A stretch of DNA of 64,000 nucleotides from Escherichia coli phage vB_EcoS_Ace. Below, one piece after another: positions 1-30,438 of this stretch. Each line of letters begins with the position of its first letter. The first letter of the stretch is position 1. The position numbers were made by a program, and so were the translations under genes. Location of the stretch: the sequence record MT833283.1. The stretch is one strand, 5' to 3'. The notes beneath the pieces are model-generated. The model was not told where the DNA came from, did not search any database, and saw only the letters and a list, made by a program, of their open reading frames with translations.

Positions 1-68
1 CCTGGGATTCGAACCCAGAACTGACGGATTAAAGGTCCGCTACTCTTATCCAGTTGAGCTAGCAATCC
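1..68 (-). tRNA. tRNA, 3' acceptor end cut by window edge; anticodon loop read as CCTTTAA (possibly UUU, Lys)
   Basis: Minus-strand hand fold: D-arm GCTC/GAGT, anticodon stem GCGGA/TCCGT, T-arm CTGGG-TTCGAAT-CCCAG; the 3' acceptor strand lies outside the window. C at position 33 is atypical. Confidence 0.55.
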
Positions 69-3329: not shown

Positions 3330-3668
3330 TTAAGCAACTACATTTTTCAGAAATTTGATGCCTTTCTTACACTTCTTATACCACCACGTCTTAGAGTTTT
3401 GTCGATTATGAACGCTTGAGATCTTCGCCTCATTAAAGTGCTTCAAAAGCATATAATCAGCCCCTAATTGCTCAAGTGGAATGTGATCTCCACTAGAATC
3501 ATAAACATAAGGCCGTTGATTAGCTCTGTAGTGATATACCTTATTAATCCGGCGTTTAAGCAAAGGACTAGTACAGTATATAAAGAAGTTTTTAGGATGC
3601 ATCAGCATCTCCTTCAAAATTGGTGCACCCCGTTGGTAACGATCCAACCTCTCAAGCTCTTCAGGCAA
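3330..3668 (-). CDS. hypothetical protein
   Basis: 112 aa ORF on the coding strand of this block. Confidence 0.5.
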   Translation of the reverse strand: MPEELERLDRYQRGAPILKEMLMHPKNFFIYCTSPLLKRRINKVYHYRANQRPYVYDSSGDHIPLEQLGADYMLLKHFNEAKISSVHNRQNSKTWWYKKCKKGIKFLKNVVA

Positions 3669-3701
3669 GCGCTAATCCATCTCAGCTAAAGGTGCAAATA
3701 T

Positions 3702-4397: not shown

Positions 4398-4485
4398 TGG
4401 TGGGCGTTAATGGAGTCGAACCACTCGAGTCGCAATGACCAGGGATTTACAATCCCCTCCGCTACCACTTACGGAATAAACGCCC
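4398..4485 (-). tRNA. tRNA-Tyr (GTA), type II with long variable arm
   Basis: Acceptor GGGCGTT/AACGCCC, D-arm TCCG/CGGA, anticodon stem GGGGA/TCCCT with loop TTGTAAA, about 15-nt variable arm, T-arm AGTGG-TTCGACT-CCATT, CCA encoded; 88 nt. Confidence 0.75.
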
Positions 4486-4982: not shown

Positions 4983-5255
4983 TTAAACTCCTGATTCTTC
5001 AGCCAGATCAAGCCCAACCAACGTGATTGCCATAATAGCCGCGCCATGTTCCTTCTCTCCTAGCTCTTTAGCTTGAGTGAGAATATTGAGGAATTGCTTT
5101 TGAAAATCTGTAACTTCTTCTGTCATGCCTGCTTCAGCAATAATTCCTTTCAGCATAAAGCGTTGTGCCGTAATTTCAGGATTAGCCATTTGTTTTCTCC
5201 AGTTATTTAGAATGTAAGCCAAACTTAGGATCATAGCGATCATAAGTCGTACCAT
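4983..5255 (-). CDS. hypothetical protein
   Basis: 90 aa ORF. Confidence 0.5.
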   Translation of the reverse strand: MVRLMIAMILSLAYILNNWRKQMANPEITAQRFMLKGIIAEAGMTEEVTDFQKQFLNILTQAKELGEKEHGAAIMAITLVGLDLAEESGV

Positions 5256-5341
5256 TAGTTGAAGCCTTGATGCTATGAAAACGACAGTACATAAATTTAC
5301 GTAGTGCTTTATTAATAGCTTTCATTTTATTTCCTTTTATT

Positions 5342-5418
5342 TGGTAGGGGTGGTGGGATTCGAACCCACAAAACCTGAATTTTAAGTCCAGTACCTATGC
5401 CAATTCGATTACACCCCC
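5342..5418 (-). tRNA. tRNA, anticodon read as TAA (Leu) with short variable arm
   Basis: Acceptor GGGGGTG/CACCCCT, anticodon stem CTGGA/TTCAG with loop CTTAAAA, T-arm GTGGG-TTCGAAT-CCCAC, CCA encoded. Confidence 0.6.
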
Positions 5419-5426
5419 ATGTAATC

Positions 5427-5765
5427 TTAGCGAATCTCTAAACCCTGGAAATATCGAGGGAATGGAGAGCCAACTTCAAAATTAATACCCCAATTAAGTT
5501 CAACGAGTTCAGATTTATTAAGATCCAGACCATTACCTTCAAAGATATAGCCGTAAACCGCAGGGAACATAGCTGCTAGATCTTCCATATCGGAATGAGC
5601 ATTGTGTTCTTCACGAAACTGCTCAAACTCTTCAAAGAACTTTTCTAGGAAGAACTCTGGTACAATGAACGTTACTACATCTGTGGTATCATCAATACGA
5701 TAGATGGTAGCTTGGAATAGACCTACACCTAAAAGGTTGACTGCCGGAGTTGTAAAAATATCCAT
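5427..5765 (-). CDS. hypothetical protein (start moved to internal ATG)
   Basis: The ORF track starts at 5876, but the ATG at 5765 has RBS GAGG and follows the stop of the upstream ORF (TAA-A-ATG), avoiding a 110-nt overlap. Confidence 0.5.
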   Translation of the reverse strand: MDIFTTPAVNLLGVGLFQATIYRIDDTTDVVTFIVPEFFLEKFFEEFEQFREEHNAHSDMEDLAAMFPAVYGYIFEGNGLDLNKSELVELNWGINFEVGSPFPRYFQGLEIR

Positions 5766-5766
5766 T

Positions 5767-5952
5767 TTAGCCTCGCTCAATATCAAAAGAAATTGCATAA
5801 TTAGGGTTAATGCCAGAACCTTTACAGGTAGGACATTCCCATTCGTTATAGAAAATGTCCCCAGGTTCAGCATCATTTTGAGTGCCAGAACCCCAACATT
5901 CAGTACACATACATTCTTCTAGCTCTTGAGCAATTTCTCGAAAGCGTGACAT
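5767..5952 (-). CDS. small zinc-finger-like protein
   Basis: 61 aa with CxxCxGSG...CPTCKGSG motifs; RBS AGGAGA upstream. Confidence 0.55.
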   Translation of the reverse strand: MSRFREIAQELEECMCTECWGSGTQNDAEPGDIFYNEWECPTCKGSGINPNYAISFDIERG

Positions 5953-6600: not shown

Positions 6601-7293
6601 TTATTTGTTAACGCGTACAAAGTATCCTTTATATGCCCCAAGAATAGAGTTACCTAAAAATACTAGCCACATTGCTAGGATTGCATAAGATGCACCTGTA
6701 GATTGAGCAGTTACAAGCCAAATGTATACAGTACCAATGTTAATAGCAATCCAGATCAGCCACTGCTCGGCATACTGCTTAACCATAAGCCACATAGCGA
6801 TCACACTACCTACCGCAGTAAATGCATCCAACATTGGGAATGGATCAGCCGTAGTAGTTAAGAAACTACCATACCCTAACGTGGCTACTGCTAGAATCCC
6901 TAGAGTCAGCAGAGCTTGGACTTTAGTCAGAATCTTAGTTGGAACATCTGGCAGATTACTTGGCTTATTTTTATGCCATAAGTACATTCCATAAAACTGC
7001 ATAGGAACGTAGTATAGCAGGTTTAGTGCAGCGTTACCATAAAGATCTTCGTTTAAAGCTGTAATACCATAGGTAAGAACACCAACTAAGCCCCAAATAT
7101 AGTTAGAAACACGTCCTTTAGCAACCAAAATAACACAAACTACGTTGGTTATCGCAGTAGCCCAATCTAGAGGTGTACCATTATAGTTAGCTAAACTAAT
7201 GAAGGCAACCGCTATGAACAGCCACAGATATTCCAGAGGTTTCCAGTTTTTAAAGTCATTTACGAGATAGTTAGTCATATTAAAACTCTCCAA
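6601..7293 (-). CDS. pnuC: nicotinamide riboside transporter PnuC
   Basis: 230 aa multi-pass membrane protein; segments PMLDAF and VIAMWLMVKQYAEQWLIWIAINI match PnuC family signatures as I recall them from E. coli PnuC. Confidence 0.8.
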   Translation of the reverse strand: MESFNMTNYLVNDFKNWKPLEYLWLFIAVAFISLANYNGTPLDWATAITNVVCVILVAKGRVSNYIWGLVGVLTYGITALNEDLYGNAALNLLYYVPMQFYGMYLWHKNKPSNLPDVPTKILTKVQALLTLGILAVATLGYGSFLTTTADPFPMLDAFTAVGSVIAMWLMVKQYAEQWLIWIAINIGTVYIWLVTAQSTGASYAILAMWLVFLGNSILGAYKGYFVRVNK

Positions 7294-7903
7294 CGTTAAA
7301 GTGATGAATCAGCCAGTCTACTGCGTTTACTGCTTCGTCCATACGAACTTTGTAGTCCGGGGAGTCGATGTACACAGTACGCCCTTCAGGGAACTGATTT
7401 GGAAATTCTTTCTTCATCTGCTCGAACAGTTCAGAAGTAATTGAACGATCGGAGTTAATACGTAAACCATCATCTACCCACTTGACAGTGGGCGCTAGAA
7501 CAATTACTAAATCGTAATGTTCTTCTTTTGCAATTGCTGTAACCACAGGGTTCTTACGATGTTCATAAAGTCTGTGGTAGAACTCAGTAATAAAAGCATT
7601 TGTATCCACAAACATGATCTTATTTGCAGTACGTTCTGCCTCAAACTCTAGCTCTTTGTGTCTGAACGCAATTTTACTATAATCTTCGCTGGTAAGCAGA
7701 TTTTCGTTACCAACTAGATCAACTTCACAATACGTTCGACCATATTCTTCTACCCACGAAGTGTTGTATAGCTTCGCAAGGTATTTTGTTAAAGTAGTCT
7801 TTCCTGAGCTTTCAGTCCCAATGATTACAACCCTACGCACGTAATCTTTACGAACTACGCTAGGAAGAAACTCCCAATACTTCATAAGATCATTACGAAT
7901 CAT
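7280..7903 (-). CDS. nadR: NadR-like ribosylnicotinamide kinase domain (downstream part of a nadR-like gene interrupted by an in-frame TAG)
   Basis: Walker A IIGTESSGKTTL; translation of the same frame upstream back to the TAG at 8114-8116 gives ...RVPISATMIRNDL (nucleotidyltransferase ISxTxIR motif) with no further stop. Confidence 0.75.
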   Translation of the reverse strand: MIRNDLMKYWEFLPSVVRKDYVRRVVIIGTESSGKTTLTKYLAKLYNTSWVEEYGRTYCEVDLVGNENLLTSEDYSKIAFRHKELEFEAERTANKIMFVDTNAFITEFYHRLYEHRKNPVVTAIAKEEHYDLVIVLAPTVKWVDDGLRINSDRSITSELFEQMKKEFPNQFPEGRTVYIDSPDYKVRMDEAVNAVDWLIHHFNVGEF

Positions 7904-8113
7904 TGTAGCTGAGATTGGAACACGAGTCCGATCAGAATCTACAATATAATGACCAAACTTCGGCAGATATTTCTTATATTCTGCATCATAGTCTAGTTCG
8001 CTAGAGAAAATGGTGATCTCAGGTAAATGTCCGTAATTTTCATTAAGGATTCTAGCATATTCCGGCCAACCATTCGGATATTCAGGAATATCATCTTCAA
8101 TAATATACTCTAC

Positions 8114-8335
8114 CTAAACGTGCTCAATATCCGCGTAAGTTTGTTCTAACCAACGAAGACGATTCTTTAACTGTAATACTTCCTGATCACGTGTGTTCTG
8201 CTTATCCAGCCAACGATTATCATGACTAACTACAATAATAACTCGTTCACACATAGTTGCTGCTGTATTTATTAGGTTAATATGGCCACGCGTTAAGGGT
8301 GCGAACTTACCAATTACTAGACCAGTCTTAATCAT
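8114..8335 (-). CDS. nadR: NadR-like NMN adenylyltransferase N-terminal fragment, ending at in-frame TAG
   Basis: MIKTGLVIGKFAPLTRGHINL carries the (H/T)xGH nucleotidyltransferase motif; same frame as 7280-7903; start ATG 8335 has RBS AGAGAGG and a T5-type promoter. Confidence 0.7.
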   Translation of the reverse strand: MIKTGLVIGKFAPLTRGHINLINTAATMCERVIIVVSHDNRWLDKQNTRDQEVLQLKNRLRWLEQTYADIEHV

Positions 8336-8598: not shown

Positions 8599-9543
8599 TT
8601 ACTTGTTACGCATATCCATGATCATTTGACCATCGTAGCCAGTACCAACAACAGTCTGCGGTACACCACCTTGGTATTTTTCAGCACGAAGCATTTCAAC
8701 TTCCAGCTGCTTCCAACGAATCATTTCAGGAGTAATGGTACGTTGCAGCGCGGCGTTAGCTTCAGCTTCTTTCTTAGCTGCGTACAGTTTAGCATCTGCG
8801 TCACGTTCGTTAGCTACTGCCATGTTTTCACGAGCAGAACGATCAGCTTCAGCTTGCTTAACTTTCTGCTGTGCTTCTTGTTCAACACGAGCCAATTCAG
8901 CTTTTGCAGCGTTAACTTGTTCTTCACGAACTTTAGTGTTCTGTACCTGTTCCATGATTACCGGTGGCAGAGTAATATCCTGAAGGAATACTTGCTTAAC
9001 CGTGTAACCATAAGGACGCGCGTACTCTTCTACCTCTTGCTGAATAGCAGTTTGCAGTTGAGCCTGAATCTTAGCGTCGAACAGATCTTGTGCTTTTGGT
9101 ACGGACTTACCAAACTCACGAATCGTAGACAGCATCTTCTCTTCAACGTACTTGTTCAGAGCTTGATCCTGAGTACCTGCGTTAACACGGTTCATAGGAG
9201 CTTTAGCACCATCAAACTGCAACATAACGGTAATGTCAACAGTAGACTTAAACTTATCCTGGCTAGGAACCTGAAGTTTATCCAGTTTCATGGAAATATC
9301 TTTCGTACTAAAAGTATCAAAAGAAGCAAATGGGTTAACAATATGGAAGCCTGGCAGTACAGGGTTCGGGCTAACTTTACCCAGGAAGGTCTGAGTCTTT
9401 ACAGTACCATCCTGAACAACTGTGTAGGAATTGAGAGCCAGAATAAGAGCACCAAGACCAACTACAGCACCAACACCCCAACGTTTAATAGTACGAATTA
9501 CTTTTTGCTCAGAAGTCAGTTCTTTAGTGTTTTTAGTAAACAT
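8599..9543 (-). CDS. SPFH/band-7 (stomatin/prohibitin/HflK-like) membrane protein
   Basis: 314 aa; N-terminal TM helix (WGVGAVVGLGALILAL), SPFH-like core, long charged coiled-coil C-terminus (EQVNAAKAELARVEQEAQQK...). Confidence 0.65.
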   Translation of the reverse strand: MFTKNTKELTSEQKVIRTIKRWGVGAVVGLGALILALNSYTVVQDGTVKTQTFLGKVSPNPVLPGFHIVNPFASFDTFSTKDISMKLDKLQVPSQDKFKSTVDITVMLQFDGAKAPMNRVNAGTQDQALNKYVEEKMLSTIREFGKSVPKAQDLFDAKIQAQLQTAIQQEVEEYARPYGYTVKQVFLQDITLPPVIMEQVQNTKVREEQVNAAKAELARVEQEAQQKVKQAEADRSARENMAVANERDADAKLYAAKKEAEANAALQRTITPEMIRWKQLEVEMLRAEKYQGGVPQTVVGTGYDGQMIMDMRNK

Positions 9544-10374: not shown

Positions 10375-11247
10375 ATTGATTCCTTTTGTTAGGTATTTTT
10401 AAGAACTCTCGAAAAAGCTCTTAAAGATACCCGGCGGTAGGTAGGGTCAGCCCCCTCAGATTAAGCTCTGCAGCCCTTCCGTCAGACAATATCCTCCAGT
10501 TTAAGTCAGGGTGACTTTGTGGTTATGTTCTCCGTATGTGAAGAACTCGGTTAGGCTTAGGTCATGACTCCCAGCCTACTGCTGCCACTCAACAGGAATT
10601 ATCGCGAATTACCTGTACTATTGGGCACCATTAGTGACATCTCTCATGCCAGCATTTCCCACTCTCATATTCACGCGGTCTGGTAGAATCACACCTCCGA
10701 TTTTCGATGCGAAGCTGGATGCCTAGTCTCTATGTTAAACGGGGCACACACTAGGCAGTGATCCCGAGTTCCGAGTTTGGTTGAGGCCGTCAGGTTTCCT
10801 CGTGGTTTAGCTGTTTCGATTCTAACCTAATACTGATCAGGCGGCGTACCTCCTGAACCGTCATAGTATGTACTCCAGCAGCGAATGCTTATCCGGTATA
10901 AGCCCGAGTTATCCGATTCTTTCCGACCGCAGGATTCGAACCTGCATCTTCCACCAGTTACGGTTTAATATTACCGTTTATACTAGGACGGCAGTGTTAT
11001 CACATAAGTCAGTTCGACACCCCACTAACATAAACTAGAGAAGAGTTTACGAGATTTCGGGACAGCTCCCGTGTTTTCCGCAGATTTTCAGTTCCCTATC
11101 AATAGCAATAAGCGTTAGCTCGTAGCCTCTCTCAGAGTACTTACTAGTCTCCAACTCACCGACTCTATTCAGTGGAATAGCTATCCTAGTAGGAATCACT
11201 AAACTCACTCAGCGTAATCGGCTCGCTGTTCTCTACTTTATGAATTT
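10375..11247 (-). ncRNA. candidate long structured non-coding RNA or very long leader (ORF-free, GC-elevated, promoter-driven)
   Basis: About 870 nt with no ORF of 60 aa or more in the track; visibly more GC-rich than flanking DNA; strong T5-type promoter at 11248-11276 reads into it; contains canonical T-arm GCAGG-TTCGAAT-CCTGC (plus 10928-10944) without a foldable tRNA body. Confidence 0.4.
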
Positions 11248-14656: not shown

Positions 14657-15358
14657 TCAAATTTTGATTTTTTTGATCATGACGGCTACACAATAACTTT
14701 CAACTAAAGCATCAAATGCTGGATCATGCTTCACAGGATAGATTCCATAACGAATGGTGTCCATCTTTTCCATTTTAGCTTTTGCCCAGCTAGCACCTTC
14801 GGCTTCTAGATCTTTATAGCTATAACCAGCTTGCATCCACTGATTACGGAAAGATCGAACGTTACCTAAGTTCCAGAATTTCCACGGAACTATTTCTTCA
14901 TGGGTTCCGGCATGGAACGTATTTGCAGAGTAGATTGTCATATCAAACTCTGGGCCATTGCCGTAATACAGAGCATTATCTCCTAGAGACAATTCCATAA
15001 TGTTCTGAGCCATAGAGAAGGCAGCATAATTAGAGCCTACGTCATTAGTGCAGTGATGCTTACCATCACGGAAGGCAATTAGTTTAGGATTACGACCATT
15101 TAGAGCCTCCATAATATGGAGCGCAGATGGACTGTTTTTAGCTTGATCCATCCAGAATGCAATAGTAGAGGCAGTTACCTTAGCACCCGCATTAAGCTGA
15201 TCTTGAACGTCTAGAGTAACGAATACCAGATCAGGATCTTTATCAATTCCGTGCATCGCTACAAAAGCGAAAGAAGGCATTGCAATATGAGTAGTACCGC
15301 AATTTCCTGGAGTACCTAGAGATTCAATGTCCAGCATACCAAAGGGCTTGAATTTCAT
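14657..15358 (-). CDS. DEDDh-type 3'-5' exonuclease (DnaQ/oligoribonuclease-like)
   Basis: 233 aa; Exo I-like GMLDIESLG and Exo III-like YPVKHDPAFDA motifs. Confidence 0.6.
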   Translation of the reverse strand: MKFKPFGMLDIESLGTPGNCGTTHIAMPSFAFVAMHGIDKDPDLVFVTLDVQDQLNAGAKVTASTIAFWMDQAKNSPSALHIMEALNGRNPKLIAFRDGKHHCTNDVGSNYAAFSMAQNIMELSLGDNALYYGNGPEFDMTIYSANTFHAGTHEEIVPWKFWNLGNVRSFRNQWMQAGYSYKDLEAEGASWAKAKMEKMDTIRYGIYPVKHDPAFDALVESYCVAVMIKKIKI

Positions 15359-17621: not shown

Positions 17622-18200
17622 TTATTCTCCAATTACTAAAACATCATGTTGAGAAGATACACCACACATATAATCTGCACAATGCGTAAAAGCCAGATCA
17701 ATGATTTCAAATATATCATCTACATCTAAATCTGTGGCTCGACAATACGCAATAGCTAAACCTGTACGAATACTGGAAAGTACATCTTCTCCTCCACAGC
17801 CTACACCGGCATATTCAACTTCTAGAATAGAAGCATTAGATTGGAAAATAAAGATTCTTCCTTTGTAGAGCATAATAAATTGTCCCAGATTAGGTTCAGC
17901 ATATTTTTCATTTTTCTTTTCGCCAAAATCTTTCTGGTTAAACATATCACGTAATTTAGGTACTATTTCCGTGTATAAATATTTATCATCAGAAATATCT
18001 GCTAAACGTGGTGGTACAGTAAAGCTATGCTCTAGTAATTGTCCCATGTAGAAGGAACTAGTGTATCCGAAGTACAAATCATCAGAGATTTTGAATACTT
18101 TCGGATTTTTAACCAGCAGTTTCGTATAGCCATTAGAACCCATACGATCACCAGCTAAGTATACTTTATCTTTATATTTAAATGCTACTATGGCTGTCAT
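17622..18200 (-). CDS. Ntn-hydrolase, HslV/proteasome-beta-like
   Basis: 192 aa; Thr immediately after iMet (MTAIVAFKYKDKVYLAGD) like the HslV N-terminal nucleophile; Gly-rich AGVGCGGEDV segment. Confidence 0.55.
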   Translation of the reverse strand: MTAIVAFKYKDKVYLAGDRMGSNGYTKLLVKNPKVFKISDDLYFGYTSSFYMGQLLEHSFTVPPRLADISDDKYLYTEIVPKLRDMFNQKDFGEKKNEKYAEPNLGQFIMLYKGRIFIFQSNASILEVEYAGVGCGGEDVLSSIRTGLAIAYCRATDLDVDDIFEIIDLAFTHCADYMCGVSSQHDVLVIGE

Positions 18201-26969: not shown

Positions 26970-27003
26970 CAGCCAGGTCGCTAGTCGATCTGGCTTTTAT
27001 TTT
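26970..27003 (+). terminator. rho-independent terminator after nrdD
   Basis: Hairpin AGCCAG...CTGGCT followed by TTTTATTTTAC. Confidence 0.55.
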
Positions 27004-27005
27004 AC

Positions 27006-27034
27006 TTGCTTTCTAGCTAAAACTTATGTATAAT
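27006..27034 (+). promoter_or_regulatory. T5-type early promoter (TTGCTT-17-TATAAT) with conserved leader
   Basis: ttgctt 27006-27011, tataat 27029-27034, leader ATAAATTTGAGAGGAG. Confidence 0.7.
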
Positions 27035-27063
27035 TGATTTATAAATTTGAGAGGAGAAAACGA

Positions 27064-27282
27064 ATGGCAAAAGTACCACAAGAATTTACGGATGGAATTA
27101 AGGCAGATCTAGATGTAATGCTAATGGCCCAATGGGAGTCTGGCTTCCGAGATGGAATTGATTGTTGTGTGGCCGTGCTCGATACTATTAGTTGGCAGCT
27201 TATTCAATCTGGAAATGATGCAGAAGGCAACCTTCTAGCTAACCTTTCTAAACAAATTAGGGAAATGAAATGCGCAGATTAA
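27064..27282 (+). CDS. hypothetical protein
   Basis: Start at ATG 27064 (MAKVPQEF) with RBS GAGAGGAGAAAA; the upstream ATG at 27034 lies inside the promoter. Confidence 0.5.
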   Translation: MAKVPQEFTDGIKADLDVMLMAQWESGFRDGIDCCVAVLDTISWQLIQSGNDAEGNLLANLSKQIREMKCAD

Positions 27283-28112
27283 TTATTGTTAGTGGTGCAG
27301 GTTTGAGTGTAGATAGTGGTGTTCGTGCTTTCCGTACTGATACTGCTAGTGGGAAATCCTTGTGGGATGAGTACGATCTAGAGGAAGTATGTAGCTTGCC
27401 TAACTTTGAAGCTGGCTTCCGTCGCTTCTGTGGTGAAGATGATCCTAACTACTTCAGTGCTCGTTTCCCTGGCATTGATGAAGATGGTAACGATCTGTAT
27501 CTCAAGACTCATGAGTTCTACAACATGCGTCGTCAGGAATTACAGACTGTTGAGCCTAACATTGCCCATCTGCGAATTGCAGAATGGTTCCAGCGTTATG
27601 ATGCGGATAGCGTGAAGAACTTCACTACTAACGTTGATGACCTTCTGGAACGTGCTGGTATCCCTCGTGATGAAATCATTCACGCTCACGGGTACTTGAA
27701 AGAGGTGATCTATCGTCAGGGTCGCAATCAAATCATCGAAGATGTTGGGTATACTGCGATTGCCCCTGAAGATTACGAATGGGTAAAACCAAACGTAACA
27801 TTCTTTGGTGAGACGGCTCCGTGGTATATGGGTCAGATTAACCTGTTTGATACGCTTACTAGCAATGATATGGTTATTGTGGTAGGTTGTAGCAACCAAG
27901 TGATTGACTTCAACTGGGAACTATTCCCTGCTGTATGTCGTGGAACTAAGATGATGGTTGTTAACCCTCAAGTTCGCTATGATGAACAGCTTGAATATGA
28001 GAAACGTGGTGTTACTGTATGGCGGGCTGGAGCTGCCGAAGTTTTTGGTAACAAGCATTTCATTGGTCAAGTAGAAGCCTTTATGGAAGGAACTATTTAT
28101 GTCGCATCCTAA
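27270..28112 (+). CDS. Sir2-family (sirtuin-like) NAD-dependent protein, no obvious Zn-ribbon
   Basis: 280 aa; Sir2 motifs GAGLSVDSGVRAFR, TTNVDDLLERAG, HAHG, PNVTFFGE, IVVGCS. Confidence 0.7.
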   Translation: MRRLIIVSGAGLSVDSGVRAFRTDTASGKSLWDEYDLEEVCSLPNFEAGFRRFCGEDDPNYFSARFPGIDEDGNDLYLKTHEFYNMRRQELQTVEPNIAHLRIAEWFQRYDADSVKNFTTNVDDLLERAGIPRDEIIHAHGYLKEVIYRQGRNQIIEDVGYTAIAPEDYEWVKPNVTFFGETAPWYMGQINLFDTLTSNDMVIVVGCSNQVIDFNWELFPAVCRGTKMMVVNPQVRYDEQLEYEKRGVTVWRAGAAEVFGNKHFIGQVEAFMEGTIYVAS

Positions 28113-28314
28113 TAAGGGTAAAATGGGAGATATGGGATCAGACCCCCGATTTTACAAATCGCCTAAAAGACACCCTGATGATATAATTGTATGGCCAGAT
28201 AAAACATGGTGCTATCGTGAAGAGTTGTGGGAAATGGATTATATGTCAGATGATTTCTGTGTAATCTATATCGACACACCGGAACATAAAGCGTTCCTAG
28301 AGGAGAACGAATGA
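28099..28314 (+). CDS. hypothetical protein
   Basis: 71 aa ORF overlapping neighbours. Confidence 0.45.
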   Translation: MSHPNKGKMGDMGSDPRFYKSPKRHPDDIIVWPDKTWCYREELWEMDYMSDDFCVIYIDTPEHKAFLEENE

Positions 28315-28496
28315 TAAAGAAGATTTTTAAGGGTATCTGGAAAGGTCTAGTATGGTTTGTCAACCTAATCGGTATGATTACCATTTATTCTCTGTTCCTA
28401 TCTGTTATGTGGGGTAAAGGTGAATTGAAGGTTCCGGTTCCTTTTACTGAGGAAGTTAAAGTCTGGACGTGGGATGCTACTGGTGGAAATAAGTAA
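28311..28496 (+). CDS. small membrane protein
   Basis: 61 aa with one hydrophobic helix (GLVWFVNLIGMITIYSLFLSVMW). Confidence 0.45.
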   Translation: MIKKIFKGIWKGLVWFVNLIGMITIYSLFLSVMWGKGELKVPVPFTEEVKVWTWDATGGNK

Positions 28497-28989
28497 TACT
28501 CCTGTGATTTTCCTGGATATTGATGGGGTGCTCAATTCGAGCATCTCTCACCATCATGCTCCAGACAGTGAAAAGCTGTTCTTTGGCAGTGATTGGGTTT
28601 ATAAGCCATTACTCCAGGCTTTTCAGAACTTTCTTAAACCCTCCCCAATAATGATTGTTGGGGTCTCTTCATGGTTTTCTGTACGAAATGAAATGGAGAA
28701 CGTTCAGATTATGACCGGACTCGGTTTGATCGATCGTTTCCTTGGTACAACAGATTTTACTGGAGGTGGTTTATCTCGGGGTAATTCTGTTTTACGTTTC
28801 GTCGAAAAATATAAGCTCAAGCATTGGTGTGTCCTAGATGATGCTGGTGCTATGATGTACCAATTCCCTACTGTTATTGTAAATGGCAGGACTGGAATAA
28901 ACCTTCAAGATTTAAATGCTATCAGCTATATGCTGGAGTTTAGTCCAGATCTTGAAATGTGTAAGGCTCTTCAGAAACTTAAGGTGTAA
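28474..28989 (+). CDS. HAD-like phosphatase (putative)
   Basis: 171 aa; N-terminal VIFLDIDGVLNSS resembles HAD motif I; weak assignment. Confidence 0.45.
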   Translation: MLLVEISNTPVIFLDIDGVLNSSISHHHAPDSEKLFFGSDWVYKPLLQAFQNFLKPSPIMIVGVSSWFSVRNEMENVQIMTGLGLIDRFLGTTDFTGGGLSRGNSVLRFVEKYKLKHWCVLDDAGAMMYQFPTVIVNGRTGINLQDLNAISYMLEFSPDLEMCKALQKLKV

Positions 28990-28991
28990 AT

Positions 28992-29420
28992 ATGTTCGAT
29001 AATCTTTTCATGAAAGAGGTAAACCCTATGCTCCTCAACTTCTGGCGTTCTCTCCCTAATGGTATGTATAATGAAACCATCAATCTGCTTAAGATTTGGT
29101 GTGAGAATAACGATATCTTCCTATCCTTTAAAGGCCCACTAGAGGAAGCTCCATGTATTGGAGTTAGCGTGGATTTAGGTGAGGGAGTAGAAGAAATTGT
29201 AGACTGGAAAGAACTCGATGAAATGGGTCTGGTTTTTGCCTTGAACCATAAGCTGTTTATGCCTGCAAATCACCGTCTTATTGTAAACTATCGCACTGGT
29301 GAAGCTCCTGCTTTCCAGGTAAATGAACGTGAGGGCTGGTCATATTCGCCCAAAGAAGTAAATGAGGGGATTCAGAAACTTCGTCGTTTCGGGTATATGA
29401 TCCCAGGTTTAACTGCTTAA
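28992..29420 (+). CDS. hypothetical protein, tandem paralog A
   Basis: 142 aa; shares ELDEMGLVFALN...YRTGEAP...RRFGYMIPGL pattern with the next ORF. Confidence 0.5.
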   Translation: MFDNLFMKEVNPMLLNFWRSLPNGMYNETINLLKIWCENNDIFLSFKGPLEEAPCIGVSVDLGEGVEEIVDWKELDEMGLVFALNHKLFMPANHRLIVNYRTGEAPAFQVNEREGWSYSPKEVNEGIQKLRRFGYMIPGLTA

Positions 29421-29429
29421 GGAGGCAGA

Positions 29430-29825
29430 ATGGAACAAGTATTTTGGCGTCAGATAGATCCTAGTTTGGTAGAGCGTGCTGAAGGGCTCCTTGCACGTTG
29501 GTTGGGGGTTGACAAGGTTAGTGTAACATTTCCGTTTACTTCTGTAACAGACCCTAGTGTAGGTGTCTTTGTGGACGAAGATGAAGATGATGGTTGGGAA
29601 GCTGACTGGAATGAATTGTCCAGTATGGGCTTGATTGTTGCCCTCAACTTCTCTATATTCCATCCACGTGGCTTAGCCATTACACGTGACCCCGAAACTG
29701 GTGAATCCCCTTATCTTTTGCAAGTAGAAGATGATATTTGGGAGTACACCGAAGATATTCTCGAAGAAGCTAAAGGTCAATTAAATCGCATTGGGATCTA
29801 TGTTCCAGGCCTAAATGATGATTGA
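29430..29825 (+). CDS. hypothetical protein, tandem paralog B
   Basis: 131 aa; ELSSMGLIVALN...PETGESP...NRIGIYVPGL parallels the previous ORF. Confidence 0.5.
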   Translation: MEQVFWRQIDPSLVERAEGLLARWLGVDKVSVTFPFTSVTDPSVGVFVDEDEDDGWEADWNELSSMGLIVALNFSIFHPRGLAITRDPETGESPYLLQVEDDIWEYTEDILEEAKGQLNRIGIYVPGLNDD

Positions 29826-30438
29826 TTTTCATTAGTCCAATCCTGATTACCGAGTCATTTTGGCTCGGTTTTCTCTGTGCTCAAAGACACTGATAGCACC
29901 TTCGGAAAAATTTTACTTGCAGGATGCTCAAAATCTTGATATAATATTTATATTGAATTGAGAGACATTAGTAAAAATTGATTTTGCTAATTTTTCTTGT
30001 TTACAATCCGCAATACGGAACAGTTAGGCTGCCCCATTAAGGGTTGTTTTAACTATTACTAGTGTTTATACTGCATTAGTTAATTATCAATTAAGTGATC
30101 TGCGTACCCTGAATTCGGAAAGGTAAATCCAAACCGTGCATATTTAGCTCGTTATATAGGCAGAGCTTTATATGGGGGTGCGAACGAAAAGAGCAGCGAA
30201 TGGTGACACGTCCAGTAGCCACCTACCAATAGGATAGTGAGGGCAATCAGAATAGGCTTAGCGGCCAATGACCTAGGTTCTGATCTGGATAAGAGTTAAG
30301 AGAGCGCAGCACTGAGGTATGATAACTTATTCATACTGCTTGATGATTAATGTTTGTGTAAATGGTAGTAATAGTTGTTCTATTCTTTTGAATAGTCCTA
30401 AAGAAAGATATCCGAATAACCAACATAGGAGTATTGTT

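What the first reader, a model, noticed from the sequence alone, without database searches (positions are those of the whole stretch)
27034..29825. Sir2-like protein lacking a zinc ribbon, embedded in a cluster of small early genes
The 280-aa ORF has the full set of sirtuin catalytic motifs (GAGLS..SG..FR, TTNVDDLLERAG, HG, FGE, VGCS) but no obvious CxxC zinc module. It is co-located with two tiny ORFs, a small membrane protein, a HAD-like phosphatase candidate and a tandem pair of paralogs. Zn-less Sir2 domains often act as NADases or ADP-ribosyltransferases rather than deacetylases. In an early-expressed phage block this could modify host proteins or interfere with host signalling or defence.
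Basis: partly seen in the sequence, partly recalled or inferred. Interest (0 to 1): 0.6.

Follow-up and report, generated by a model that had tools for sequence, protein, structure and literature searches.

The report
Zinc-less phage sirtuin, already described

Summary
Window 27270-28112 encodes a 280-aa Sir2-family protein (Pfam SIR2, 78 bits). All NAD+-binding and catalytic motifs are present. No zinc-binding cysteines are found in it or in 59 diverse relatives. It sits in a seven-gene unit bounded by a promoter and a terminator, together with a HAD phosphatase (HAD_SAK_2), two DUF7415 paralogs and three small ORFs.

It is not new. The window is a T5-like phage (Epseptimavirus) and the unit equals T5.100-T5.107. 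T5.102 was annotated "Sir2-like" in 2005. Loss of the zinc ligands in phage Sir2/CobB proteins was reported in 2016. The Sir2 + "Swiss-army-knife" HAD neighbourhood of T5-like phages was described in 2022 with a predicted Tpt1/KptA-like RNA-repair role.

Sequence and fold place the protein with class III deacylases (CobB, SIRT5), including their Tyr/Arg anion pocket, and not with defence NADases. I confirmed that orthologues in rV5-like and jumbo phages are flanked by RNA ligase, kinase, cREC, 2H, Nudix and MazG genes. Those are clean-up enzymes for ADP-ribose cyclic phosphate.

Best guess (about 0.4): phosphate-directed ADP-ribosyl transfer in RNA-end healing. Main rival (about 0.3): protein deacylase. 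I found no experiments. Interest is low to moderate.

The parts
26971..26995 (+). Terminator-like hairpin ending the upstream nrdD transcript. It marks the left boundary of the unit.
   Evidence: 10-bp stem, 6 GC pairs, T-run. T5 has an annotated terminator at the same place.
27006..27034 (+). Sigma-70-type promoter of the unit: TTGCTT, 17-nt spacer, TATAAT.
   Evidence: Read directly from the sequence. T5 annotates a promoter in the same position before T5.100. The consensus scan missed it because the -35 matches only 3 of 6 bases.
27064..27282 (+). ORF1, 72 aa, acidic, function unknown (phrog_5827). Its stop overlaps the Sir2 start by 13 nt. It is variable between T5-like phages.
   Evidence: Its only similarity is weak, to GreteKellenberger gp53.
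27270..28112 (+). Sir2-family protein, 280 aa: a class-III-derived, Zn-less phage sirtuin, homologue of T5.102.
   Evidence: Pfam SIR2 78 bits; phrog_2162; CobB 1s5p E 4e-16, and 1e-24 with the family profile; AF2 pLDDT 88.7; Foldseek top hit CobB, TM 0.83; no conserved ribbon Cys.
28099..28314 (+). ORF3, 71 aa, acidic (phrog_5116). It overlaps the Sir2 stop by 14 nt. It is conserved next to Sir2 in T5 (T5.104, 63% identity) and in Klebsiella phage Spivey (gp135, 40%).
28311..28496 (+). ORF4, 61 aa, basic, with one predicted transmembrane segment (phrog_11166). T5 and Spivey have no homologue.
28474..28989 (+). HAD-superfamily phosphatase, 171 aa (HAD_SAK_2, 'Swiss Army Knife RNA repair' HAD). 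It is 92% identical to T5.105.
   Evidence: Pfam PF18143 65.8 bits, full length. Motifs LDIDGVLN, VGxSSWF, GGG..R and LDD are invariant in the T5, Serratia ChuuTotoro and Aeromonas PX29 homologues. Found in 464 phage records.
28992..29420 (+). DUF7415 protein, paralog 1, 142 aa, with two DUF7415 repeats. Orthologue of T5.106 and Spivey gp136.
29430..29825 (+). DUF7415 protein, paralog 2, 131 aa. Orthologue of T5.107 and Spivey gp137. It is 32% identical to paralog 1.
   Evidence: Pfam PF24187 98 bits.
29849..29869 (+). Terminator-like hairpin ending the unit.
   Evidence: 9-bp stem, 5 GC pairs, T-run. T5 and Spivey annotate terminators at the same place.

Best explanation
The 280-aa protein is a catalytically competent NAD+-consuming sirtuin. 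It belongs to a phage-specific clade that descends from small class III (CobB/SIRT5-like) sirtuins and has lost the zinc ligands while keeping the ribbon as a plain beta-hairpin.

Most likely it does not deacylate lysines. Instead it uses the same two-step chemistry on a phosphate oxygen. In step one the nucleophile attacks NAD+ C1''. In step two the His-activated ribose 2''-OH attacks the adduct. That is a Tpt1/KptA-like removal of a 2'-phosphate (or a related terminal phosphate) from RNA damaged by host anticodon nucleases or RNase toxins. [quoted passage not shown]

The invariant Tyr84/Arg87 pair, which binds the succinyl carboxylate in SIRT5 and CobB, would hold the phosphate. The co-transcribed HAD phosphatase would dephosphorylate either the RNA 3' end or the ADPR-phosphate by-product.

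Shown: family, fold, intact motifs, Zn-ligand loss, operon structure, and the conserved neighbourhoods. Inferred: the substrate, the direction of the pathway and the role of the HAD. The roles of ORF3 and the two DUF7415 proteins, which travel with Sir2 across Demerecviridae, are unknown.
For: (1) Orthologues in three unrelated phage lineages sit next to RNA-end or cyclic-phosphate enzymes.
- T5-like phages: HAD_SAK_2.
- rV5-like EduardKellenberger: RNA_lig_T4_1, then cREC_REC, then sirtuin, then a MazG-like pyrophosphohydrolase. A P-loop kinase and a calcineurin-like phosphoesterase are transcribed divergently, beside a tRNA cluster.
- Jumbo Eneladusvirus: a 2H/'RNA ligase'-type gene, Sir2, and a Nudix-cREC fusion, preceded by NadM and NadV.
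This reproduces the three neighbourhood types and the KptA-like prediction of Iyer et al. 2022 (PMC9503650).

(2) Cyclic phosphodiesterases and phosphatases are the clean-up set for ADPR-1'',2''-cyclic phosphate or ADPR-1''P. They are not the set expected for O-acyl-ADPR. A full-length HAD homologue in Serratia phage ChuuTotoro sits immediately upstream of a Prs-like + NadV-like pair. That is the kind of operon in which an ADPR-1''P phosphatase (Adpp) was shown experimentally (bioRxiv 10.64898/2026.01.28.702374).

(3) The catalytic His140, N121/D123, GAGxS and FR are invariant, and the anion-binding Y84/R87 align with CobB Y92/R95.

(4) The HAD catalytic motifs are invariant.

(5) The unit is one transcription unit with overlapping genes.

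(6) T5-like phages are under known pressure from tRNA-cleaving defences (PMC11555353, listed) and carry at least 14 tRNA genes in this window.
Against: - No sirtuin has been shown to act on RNA or on a phosphate nucleophile, and I found no experiment on any member of this clade.
- Sequence and fold are closest to true protein deacylases.
- The T5-like window has no BLAST-detectable RNA ligase, polynucleotide kinase, cREC, 2H-type or Nudix gene. Any repair would therefore need host enzymes or be limited to 3'-end healing.
- E. coli already encodes KptA (my own knowledge).
- Klebsiella T5-like phages keep Sir2 but lack the HAD, so the Sir2-HAD link is not obligatory.
- Phage genes are densely packed, so adjacency is weaker evidence than it is in bacteria.
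- The function of HAD_SAK_2 is itself only a prediction.
Confidence: 0.4

Rival explanations
1. It is a protein lysine deacylase, a phage CobB. It removes acetyl, succinyl or malonyl groups from host or phage proteins early in infection to reset host metabolism or activate enzymes such as acetyl-CoA synthetase. Zinc loss is only a structural simplification.
For: - The best sequence and structure matches are deacylases: CobB E 1e-24 with the family profile (TM 0.83), then Sir2Af1, SIRT5, Hst2 and SIRT2.
- All catalytic residues are kept, together with the class III YxxR pocket and the hydrophobic acyl-tunnel positions (F179, V211, I212).
- The zinc site is structural, not catalytic, in sirtuins (established knowledge).
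- Skliros et al. 2016 proposed this for the Zn-less Vibrio phage homologues and named T5 as a carrier (PMC5107563).
- Sir2 is the fastest-diverging gene in the locus, with variable small-domain inserts. That would fit changing protein targets.
Against: - Neighbourhoods in three lineages are RNA-repair, cyclic-phosphate and phosphatase genes. None encodes an acyl-ADPR-handling or acetylation enzyme, and no Macro domain is adjacent.
- CobB equivalog models score far below their cut-offs (70 bits against 320).
- The clade deviates from deacylases in conserved motifs: TQNID becomes TTNVD, GTS becomes GCS, VxP becomes VI(N/D)F, and an invariant Cys41 lies in the acyl pocket at the CobB Ala76 position.
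- The host already has CobB.
Confidence: 0.3
2. Sir2 and the HAD work on small NAD+-derived molecules as part of the phage's NAD+-centred counter-defence. For example, they may process ADPR-1''-phosphate or other ADPR derivatives made by host NAD+-depleting or signalling systems, alongside the phage's NARP3 NAD+-rebuilding genes.
For: - A HAD homologue sits in a NARP1-like operon in ChuuTotoro.
- A phosphatase in that operon position has been proven to convert ADPR-1''P to ADPR, although it is a Macro-domain protein.
- The jumbo-phage orthologue sits between NadM/NadV and a Nudix gene.
- The window itself carries a NARP3-type PnuC-like + NadR-like pair.
Against: - No known sirtuin reaction uses free ADPR derivatives.
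- The catalytic machinery looks built for NAD+ cleavage with an incoming nucleophile.
- The Sir2 and NARP3 genes are about 19 kb apart, on opposite strands.
- In rV5-like phages the partners are a genuine RNA ligase and a kinase.
Confidence: 0.15
3. It is a free NADase or a protein mono-ADP-ribosyltransferase used for host takeover.
For: - Zn-less Sir2 domains of defence systems are NADases, and SirTM-type sirtuins ADP-ribosylate proteins (my own knowledge, and the text quoted).
- The NAD+-binding and catalytic residues are intact.
- The location between nucleotide-metabolism and replication genes suggests early expression.
Against: - There is no PADLOC hit and no SIR2_2 hit.
- No defence-type or SirTM structure appears among the top fold or sequence hits.
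- No Macro-domain partner is adjacent.
- The phage invests in rebuilding NAD+ (NARP3-type genes), and T5-group phages depend on an NAD+-dependent DNA ligase (my own knowledge). Bulk NAD+ destruction would therefore be self-defeating.
Confidence: 0.08

Closest known systems
Phage 'RNA-repair' sirtuin clade of Iyer, Burroughs, Anantharaman & Aravind 2022 (PMC9503650, section 3.7.3), neighbourhood type 3, typified by Escherichia phage SP15
   Same: It is the same gene family (SP15 Sir2 is hit H56). It has the same neighbour, a 'Swiss-army-knife' HAD phosphatase, and belongs to the same phage group (T5-like). The other two neighbourhood types were reproduced here.
   Different: Nothing essential differs. 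The window's allele is 52% identical by BLAST (63% in aligned columns) to the T5/SP15 allele and carries a small-domain insert in place of the C-terminal insert. The published function is a prediction only.
T5.102 'putative Sir2-like protein' and the T5.100-T5.107 unit of phage T5 (AY543070)
   Same: The position is the same (between nrdD and the origin-binding/primase gene), with the same promoter and terminator bracketing. The gene order is Sir2, small ORFs, HAD (T5.105, 92% identity), then DUF7415 x2 (T5.106/107, 72% and 69% identity).
   Different: The Sir2 allele is strongly diverged, and the upstream and inter-genic small ORFs differ (the TM ORF is absent from T5).
Class III sirtuins: E. 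coli CobB (1s5p, 6rx*) and human or zebrafish SIRT5
   Same: They share the Rossmann core, GAGxS, FR, NxD, the catalytic His, FGE, the Tyr-x-x-Arg anion pocket (Y84/R87 = CobB Y92/R95), and overall fold (Foldseek TM 0.83 to CobB).
   Different: The phage protein has no Zn ligands. It has Gln-to-Thr in TQNID, Thr-to-Cys in GTS and Pro-to-Asn/Asp in VxP, an invariant Cys41 at the CobB Ala76 position, and a 25-30-aa insert in the small domain. It scores far below the CobB equivalog thresholds.
Tpt1/KptA RNA 2'-phosphotransferase
   Same: The proposed reaction logic is shared: an oxygen nucleophile attacks NAD+ C1'', then the ribose 2''-OH attacks the adduct, releasing nicotinamide and a 1'',2''-linked ADPR product. 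Both are associated with RNA ligase, kinase and CPDase genes.
   Different: The fold is unrelated (Tpt1 belongs to the ART superfamily, according to the text quoted). There is no sequence relation. The activity of the phage sirtuin is untested.
Zn-less Sir2/CobB of Vibrio phages KVP40, phiSt2 and phiGrn1 (Skliros et al. 2016, PMC5107563)
   Same: They are phage-encoded Sir2/CobB proteins with no zinc ligand in the finger domain and conserved catalytic residues. That paper names T5 as a carrier of the homologue. Vibrio phage homologues appear at 33-36% identity.
   Different: They are distant (about 33% identity), come from large myoviruses that have NAD+ salvage genes, and were interpreted as deacetylases from modelling only.
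Defence-associated Sir2 NADases (ThsA, DSR1/2, Sir2-HerA, SIR2-APAZ, KomC; Pfam SIR2_2 PF13289)
   Same: They share the Sir2 superfamily, NAD+ cleavage chemistry and the absence of a canonical Zn ribbon (my own knowledge).
   Different: The phage protein has no PADLOC match, no SIR2_2 match, no fused sensor or partner domains, and defence-type structures are not among its fold hits. It is encoded by the phage, not the host.
Poa1p/Adpp ADPR-1''-phosphate phosphatases (for the HAD neighbour)
   Same: The HAD homologue occupies a position in a NARP1-like operon in one phage, comparable to that of the experimentally shown Adpp. It would serve the same step after a Tpt1-type reaction.
   Different: Adpp and Poa1p are Macro-domain proteins, whereas this is a HAD-fold phosphatase. 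Its substrate is untested.

Membership tests
Sir2/sirtuin superfamily (Pfam PF02146) | Profile match above the curated threshold | tested here: met
   78.1 bits against a gathering score of 24, E 1.1e-21.
Sir2/sirtuin superfamily (Pfam PF02146) | NAD+-binding and catalytic residues: GAGxS, S..G..FR, N-x-D, catalytic His-Gly, FGE, G-x-S, and the adenine-ribose Asn | tested here: met
   G9/A10/G11, S16/G17, F21/R22, N121/D123, H140/G141, F179/E181, G206/S208 and N232 are invariant in 59 sequences and align to CobB. The Gln of TQNID is Thr (T120, invariant).
Sir2/sirtuin superfamily (Pfam PF02146) | Rossmann fold plus a small domain inserted in it | tested here: met
   AF2 model with pLDDT 88.7 and pTM 0.87. 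Foldseek probability 1.00 to CobB, Sir2Af1, SIRT5, Hst2 and SIRT2.
Canonical deacylase sirtuins (classes I-IV and U) | Zn-binding module with Cys ligands (CxxC...CxxC; Cys-poor variant in CobB) | tested here: not met
   No Cys lies between H140 and K173, and none is conserved there in 59 relatives. The CobB Cys positions are substituted or deleted.
Class III sirtuins (CobB/SIRT5) | Tyr-x-x-Arg pair in the acyl pocket that recognises acidic acyl groups | tested here: met
   FYNxRR is invariant (Y84, R87, R88). It aligns to CobB Y92/R95, checked against the Y92A variant sequence 6rxs.
CobB orthologues (NCBIfam equivalogs NF040867, NF001755, NF001752) | Score above the equivalog cut-off | tested here: not met
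   70 bits against 320, 70 against 318, and 53 against 221.
Class III sirtuins (CobB/SIRT5) | NAD+-dependent lysine deacylase activity | not testable with these tools
   This needs enzyme assays. I found no published assay for any clade member.
Defence-type Sir2 NADases (Thoeris ThsA, DSR, Sir2-HerA, pAgo-associated) | Match to defence-system models or SIR2_2, with a fused or adjacent sensor or partner (SLOG, HerA, pAgo, and so on) | tested here: not met
   PADLOC gave 0 hits for all seven proteins. Pfam returned only PF02146. The neighbours are a HAD, DUF7415 proteins and small ORFs.
SirTM (macrodomain-linked ADP-ribosylating sirtuins) | Adjacent or fused Macro-domain gene | tested here: not met
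   No Macro domain was found in any ORF of the unit, nor in the neighbour ORFs of the rV5-like, phAPEC8-like and Klebsiella phages that I scanned.
Phage RNA-repair-associated sirtuin clade (Iyer et al. 2022) | Phage-encoded stand-alone sirtuin without a Macro partner, orthologous to the Escherichia phage SP15 / V5 / Serratia phage BF proteins | tested here: met
   SP15 (H56), T5 (H53), rV5-like (H65) and Eneladusvirus BF-species (H74) homologues were recovered with 98-100% coverage for the first three and 84% for the last. One alignable family with shared invariant residues.
Phage RNA-repair-associated sirtuin clade (Iyer et al. 2022) | Conserved neighbourhood with RNA-end or cyclic-phosphate processing genes (type 3: SAK-type HAD phosphatase) | tested here: met
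   HAD_SAK_2, 65.8 bits, lies two genes downstream in the same unit. Types 1 and 2 were verified in other phages. The HAD is absent in Sugarlandvirus.
Tpt1/KptA 2'-phosphotransferases (functional analogy only) | NAD+-dependent removal of an RNA 2'-phosphate, yielding ADPR-1'',2''-cyclic phosphate | not testable with these tools
   This needs a biochemical assay. The fold is unrelated, so membership is not claimed.
HAD superfamily phosphatases (for ORF 28474-28989) | Motif I DxD nucleophile, motif II Ser/Thr, motif III Lys/Arg, motif IV acidic pair | tested here: met
   LDIDGVLN, VGxSSWF, GGG..R and LDD are invariant in four homologues down to 33% identity. Full-length PF18143 match.

The most novel reading that the evidence does not exclude
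The sirtuin attacks phosphate rather than acyl-lysine. It ADP-ribosylates an RNA 2'-phosphate or terminal phosphate and resolves the adduct to 2'-OH RNA plus ADPR-1'',2''-cyclic phosphate, a Tpt1 reaction on a Sir2 fold, using the class III Tyr/Arg pocket for the phosphate. The HAD is a new ADPR-1''-phosphate (or RNA 3'-phosphate) phosphatase, analogous to Adpp/Poa1p. In T5-like phages, which have no RNA ligase in this window, the pair would give a ligase-independent healing route for tRNA ends cut by host defences. The idea was predicted in silico in 2022 but never tested. If shown, it would be the first nucleic-acid-directed sirtuin.
Probability: 0.35. Interest if true: 0.7.

Novelty: already known. 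Interest (0 to 1): 0.3.

Why it matters
The finding itself adds nothing new to what is published. The gene is annotated in hundreds of T5-like genomes. Its zinc-less state and its HAD neighbour have been noted in print.

What remains open is the biochemistry. This is one of the most widespread phage sirtuins (977 of 50,697 phage records) and no member has been assayed. If it proves to be a phosphate- or RNA-directed sirtuin, it would extend sirtuin chemistry beyond proteins. It would also add an NAD+-dependent step to phage RNA repair, at a time when NAD+ and tRNA cleavage are both recognised as central battlegrounds between phages and bacteria. If it is an ordinary deacylase, it would be a phage tool for rewriting host protein acylation. 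Either outcome can be tested with simple assays on a small soluble protein.

Tried and rejected
- PADLOC scan of all seven proteins: no hits. The defence-type Sir2 idea was dropped.
- NCBIfam: only sub-threshold CobB-type matches. The protein is not a CobB orthologue.
- The AFDB50 fold library was unavailable.
- tblastn of rV5-like, jumbo, ChuuTotoro and PX29 proteins (RNA ligase, cREC, kinase, phosphoesterase, MazG-like, Prs, NadV, NadM, Nudix) against the window: nothing below E 0.09 except Sir2 itself.
- Isoelectric point as a test for RNA binding: the Sir2 family is acidic (pI 4.6-6.05), but so are genuine phage RNA-repair enzymes, so the test is uninformative.
- Names and sources of the nearest Zn-less and Zn-containing relatives: almost all are unnamed metagenomic proteins. 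The origin of the clade is unresolved beyond the finding that the 18 closest representatives (E below 1e-30) have 0-2 Cys in the ribbon, while more distant ones are a mix of 4-Cys and 0-Cys forms sharing the IGY and KPNVVFFGE motifs.
- Rfam on the whole window: tRNAs only.
- Five literature searches for experimental work on phage-encoded sirtuins found none.
- The phAPEC8-like neighbourhood (tuntematon) gave only a calcineurin-like phosphoesterase 6 kb upstream and otherwise uncharacterised families, so it neither supports nor contradicts the RNA-repair theme.

Full report
**1. What the window is**

The 2.8-kb block is 97.9-99.8% identical to Epseptimavirus genomes such as Salmonella phage MET_P1_137_112 and Escherichia phage GreteKellenberger (Bas26), which belong to Demerecviridae, the T5 group. 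Upstream lies the anaerobic ribonucleotide reductase NrdD (Pfam NRDD, 574 bits). Downstream lies the primase/origin-binding helicase. Phage T5 has the same unit, T5.100-T5.107, with an annotated promoter before it and a terminator after it. T5.102 is annotated 'putative Sir2-like protein'.

**2. Check of the observation**

All seven ORFs exist on the + strand. They are tightly packed, overlapping by 4-23 nt or separated by 2-9 nt.

The 280-aa ORF passes Pfam SIR2 (78 bits against 24) and matches phrog_2162. In an alignment of 59 relatives down to about 55% identity, every classical NAD+-binding and catalytic position is invariant: G9-A10-G11, S16-G17, F21-R22, N121/D123, H140-G141, F179/E181, G206/S208 and N232.

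The protein has four cysteines and no CxxC. None of the 59 relatives has a conserved Cys between the catalytic His and the KPNxxFFGE strand. Against E. coli CobB, 'VRCSQ' has become 'VIYRQ' and 'KCHCCQFPAPL' is deleted. The AF2 model is confident (pLDDT 88.7, pTM 0.87). It predicts the former ribbon as a beta-hairpin, residues 141-158, with block-mean pLDDT of 94-95. The metal ligands are gone but the ribbon is not.

- a HAD phosphatase (HAD_SAK_2, 65.8 bits, full length) with invariant catalytic motifs;
- two DUF7415 proteins that are 32% identical to each other;
- a 61-aa basic ORF with one hydrophobic segment;
- two acidic ORFs of about 70 aa.

One correction is needed. The unit's promoter (TTGCTT 27006-27011, 17-nt spacer, TATAAT 27029-27034) follows the nrdD terminator (26971-26995). 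The first ORF therefore starts at ATG 27064, behind GAGAGGAG. A second terminator-like hairpin (29849-29869) closes the unit.

**3. Where the Sir2 belongs**

Single-sequence and profile searches of the PDB put E. coli CobB first (E 4e-16 and 1e-24), followed by Sir2Af1/Af2, SIRT5, Sir2Tm and SIRT2/3. Foldseek gives the same order, with CobB at TM 0.83. No defence-type Sir2 appears. PADLOC finds nothing, and Pfam returns only SIR2, not SIR2_2.

The class III signature Tyr-x-x-Arg is invariant (FYNxRR; Y84/R87 = CobB Y92/R95). I verified this against the Y92A variant sequence 6rxs.

The clade also deviates from CobB:
- Thr replaces the Gln of TQNID.
- GCS replaces GTS.
- VI(N/D)F replaces VxP.
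- The only invariant cysteine (C41) sits at the acyl-pocket position of CobB Ala76.
- CobB equivalog models score far below their thresholds.

An exhaustive search of 1.84 billion representatives found 1564 relatives. The 18 closest (E below 1e-30) have 0-2 Cys in the ribbon segment. More distant relatives are a mix of 4-Cys and Cys-less forms that share the IGY and KPNVVFFGE motifs. Zinc loss is therefore a secondary event inside a lineage of small CobB-like sirtuins. It is not a sign of kinship with Zn-less defence NADases.

**4. Distribution and context**

The protein family occurs in 977 of 50,697 phage records. These include T5-like phages, rV5-like and phAPEC8-like myoviruses, Klebsiella, Erwinia and Cronobacter phages and, more distantly, Vibrio and jumbo phages. 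The HAD occurs in 464 records, almost all of them Salmonella or Escherichia T5-like phages.

Within Demerecviridae the constant core is Sir2, an ORF3-type small protein (= T5.104 = Spivey gp135) and the two DUF7415 paralogs. The paralogs are orthologous between subfamilies, so the duplication is old. Klebsiella Sugarlandvirus lacks the HAD. The TM ORF and ORF1 are variable.

Sir2 is the most diverged gene of the locus. Window-versus-T5 protein identities are NrdD 97%, HAD 92%, DUF7415 72% and 69%, and Sir2 63% in aligned columns. That is no higher than identity to myovirus orthologues (55-60%). Two insert cassettes assort independently. In phage DT57C only short remnants of Sir2 and the HAD match, and they lie next to each other. 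This suggests a deletion and that the module is dispensable in the laboratory.

**5. Literature**

The finding is not new.
- T5.102 dates from the 2005 T5 annotation.
- Skliros et al. 2016 (PMC5107563) reported that the Sir2/CobB proteins of Vibrio phages phiSt2 and KVP40 lack the zinc ligand. They argued from modelling for a deacetylase and named T5 as a carrier.
- Iyer et al. 2022 (PMC9503650) defined most viral sirtuins as a distinct clade predicted to act in RNA repair 'in a manner analogous to KptA'. They described three neighbourhood types. [quoted passage not shown]
- Five searches found no experimental work on any phage-encoded member.

**6. Independent test of the neighbourhood claim**

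In the rV5-like phage EduardKellenberger the orthologue (46% identity) lies in the order RNA_lig_T4_1, cREC_REC (cyclic-phosphate-processing receiver domain), sirtuin, MazG-like pyrophosphohydrolase. A P-loop kinase and a calcineurin-like phosphoesterase are transcribed divergently, next to a tRNA cluster.

In a jumbo Eneladusvirus the sirtuin is followed by a Nudix domain fused to the same cREC family (phrog_1479). It is preceded by a phrog_755 'RNA ligase'-type protein, NadV and NadM.

These neighbours are cyclic phosphodiesterases, phosphatases and pyrophosphatases. They are what one expects for disposing of ADPR-1'',2''-cyclic phosphate, the by-product of a Tpt1-type reaction, rather than the O-acyl-ADPR of a deacylase.

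The HAD has a second association. In Serratia phage ChuuTotoro a full-length homologue (39% identity) sits immediately upstream of a Prs-like + NadV-like pair. This is the kind of NARP1 operon in which Osterman et al. 2026 showed a phosphatase (Adpp, a Macro-domain protein) converting ADPR-1''P to ADPR. In Aeromonas phage PX29 the HAD lies three genes from RNA ligase 1.

**7. Mechanism**

Putting this together, the best-supported reading (confidence about 0.4) is that the sirtuin performs phosphate-directed ADP-ribosyl transfer in RNA-end healing. The Tyr/Arg pocket would hold the phosphate. His140 would activate the ribose 2''-OH for the second step. The HAD would dephosphorylate either the RNA 3' end or the ADPR-phosphate by-product.

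Several points weigh against it:
- There is no precedent for such a sirtuin activity.
- The closest structural relatives are protein deacylases.
- This window has no RNA ligase, kinase, cREC, 2H or Nudix gene detectable by BLAST.
- Sugarlandvirus lacks the HAD.

The main rival (about 0.3) is a true lysine deacylase. The last conflicts with the lack of any defence-type or SirTM features, and with the phage's own investment in NAD+ rebuilding.

**8. Verdict**

The feature is already known and has already been interpreted in silico. Interest is low to moderate, because the enzymology of a very widespread phage sirtuin is still untested.

Noticed in passing
window 6601-8335 (- strand): A NARP3-type NAD+-rebuilding pair lies here: a PnuC-like transporter (6601-7293; NMN_transporter, 147 bits) and a NadR-like NMNAT + ribosylnicotinamide kinase (7280-8335). 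It is the homologue of the Bas30_86/87 system shown in 2026 to counter Sir2-HerA (PMC13464706). In this window the NadR-like ORF is cut by an in-frame TAG at 8116-8114 (codon 74). A relative that is 98.9% identical (phage mar003J3) has TCG (Ser) there and an intact 351-aa ORF. The cause could be an amber mutation, a pseudogene or a sequencing error. None of the 14 tRNA genes found has a CUA anticodon.
   Followed up: partly
window 27270-28112 versus L002 (T5) 5001-5819: Sir2 is far more diverged between T5-like phages than its neighbours are. Protein identities are Sir2 63% in aligned columns, NrdD 97% and HAD 92%. Sir2 is no closer to T5 than to myovirus orthologues (55-60%). Two insert cassettes (a small-domain insert at about residues 50-76 and a C-terminal insert after VVN) assort independently among lineages. 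This suggests allele exchange or fast evolution.
   Followed up: partly
L008 (Serratia phage ChuuTotoro) 5007-8223: A full-length homologue of the HAD (39% identity) sits immediately upstream of a 'ribose-phosphate pyrophosphokinase' + 'nicotinamide phosphoribosyltransferase' pair (NARP1-like). Macro-domain ADPR-1''P phosphatases were recently found associated with such operons. This raises the idea that this HAD family is an analogous ADPR-phosphate phosphatase.
   Followed up: partly
Escherichia phage DT57C NC_027356.1 46526-46762 (hits H80 and H140): Only Sir2 residues 197-250 and HAD residues 135-171 match, at adjacent and overlapping coordinates, under a single feature annotated 'sir2'. 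This looks like a deletion fusing remnants of the two genes, so the module seems dispensable for growth in the laboratory.
   Followed up: no
window 29870-30320: A non-coding stretch of about 450 nt (up to about 570 nt if the primase starts where GreteKellenberger annotates it) lies between the unit's terminator and the primase/origin-binding gene. It begins with a good promoter (TTGCAG 29917-29922, 17-nt spacer, TATAAT 29940-29945). Rfam finds nothing there. T5 has a similar gap.
   Followed up: partly
window 28099-28314: The 71-aa ORF3 (phrog_5116) contains the stretch WPDKTWCYREELWEMDYMSDDF. It is translationally coupled to the Sir2 stop and is conserved next to Sir2 in T5 (T5.104) and Klebsiella phage Spivey (gp135). 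It may be a partner or regulator of the sirtuin.
   Followed up: partly
window 14657-15358 (-), 17622-18200 (-), 8599-9543 (-): Other accessory genes lie on the opposite strand: an Rv2179c-like 3'-5' exoribonuclease domain protein, a proteasome-subunit (HslV-like) protein and an SPFH/Band 7 protein.
   Followed up: no
window 1-68, 3624-3695, 10921-10992 (- strand): Rfam tRNA matches where ARAGORN genes (tRNA-Tyr 4398-4485 is found by ARAGORN only). The three Rfam-only matches are one cut by the window edge and two weak ones (33.4 and 29.7 bits against a threshold of 29).
   Followed up: no
[not shown]
   Followed up: yes
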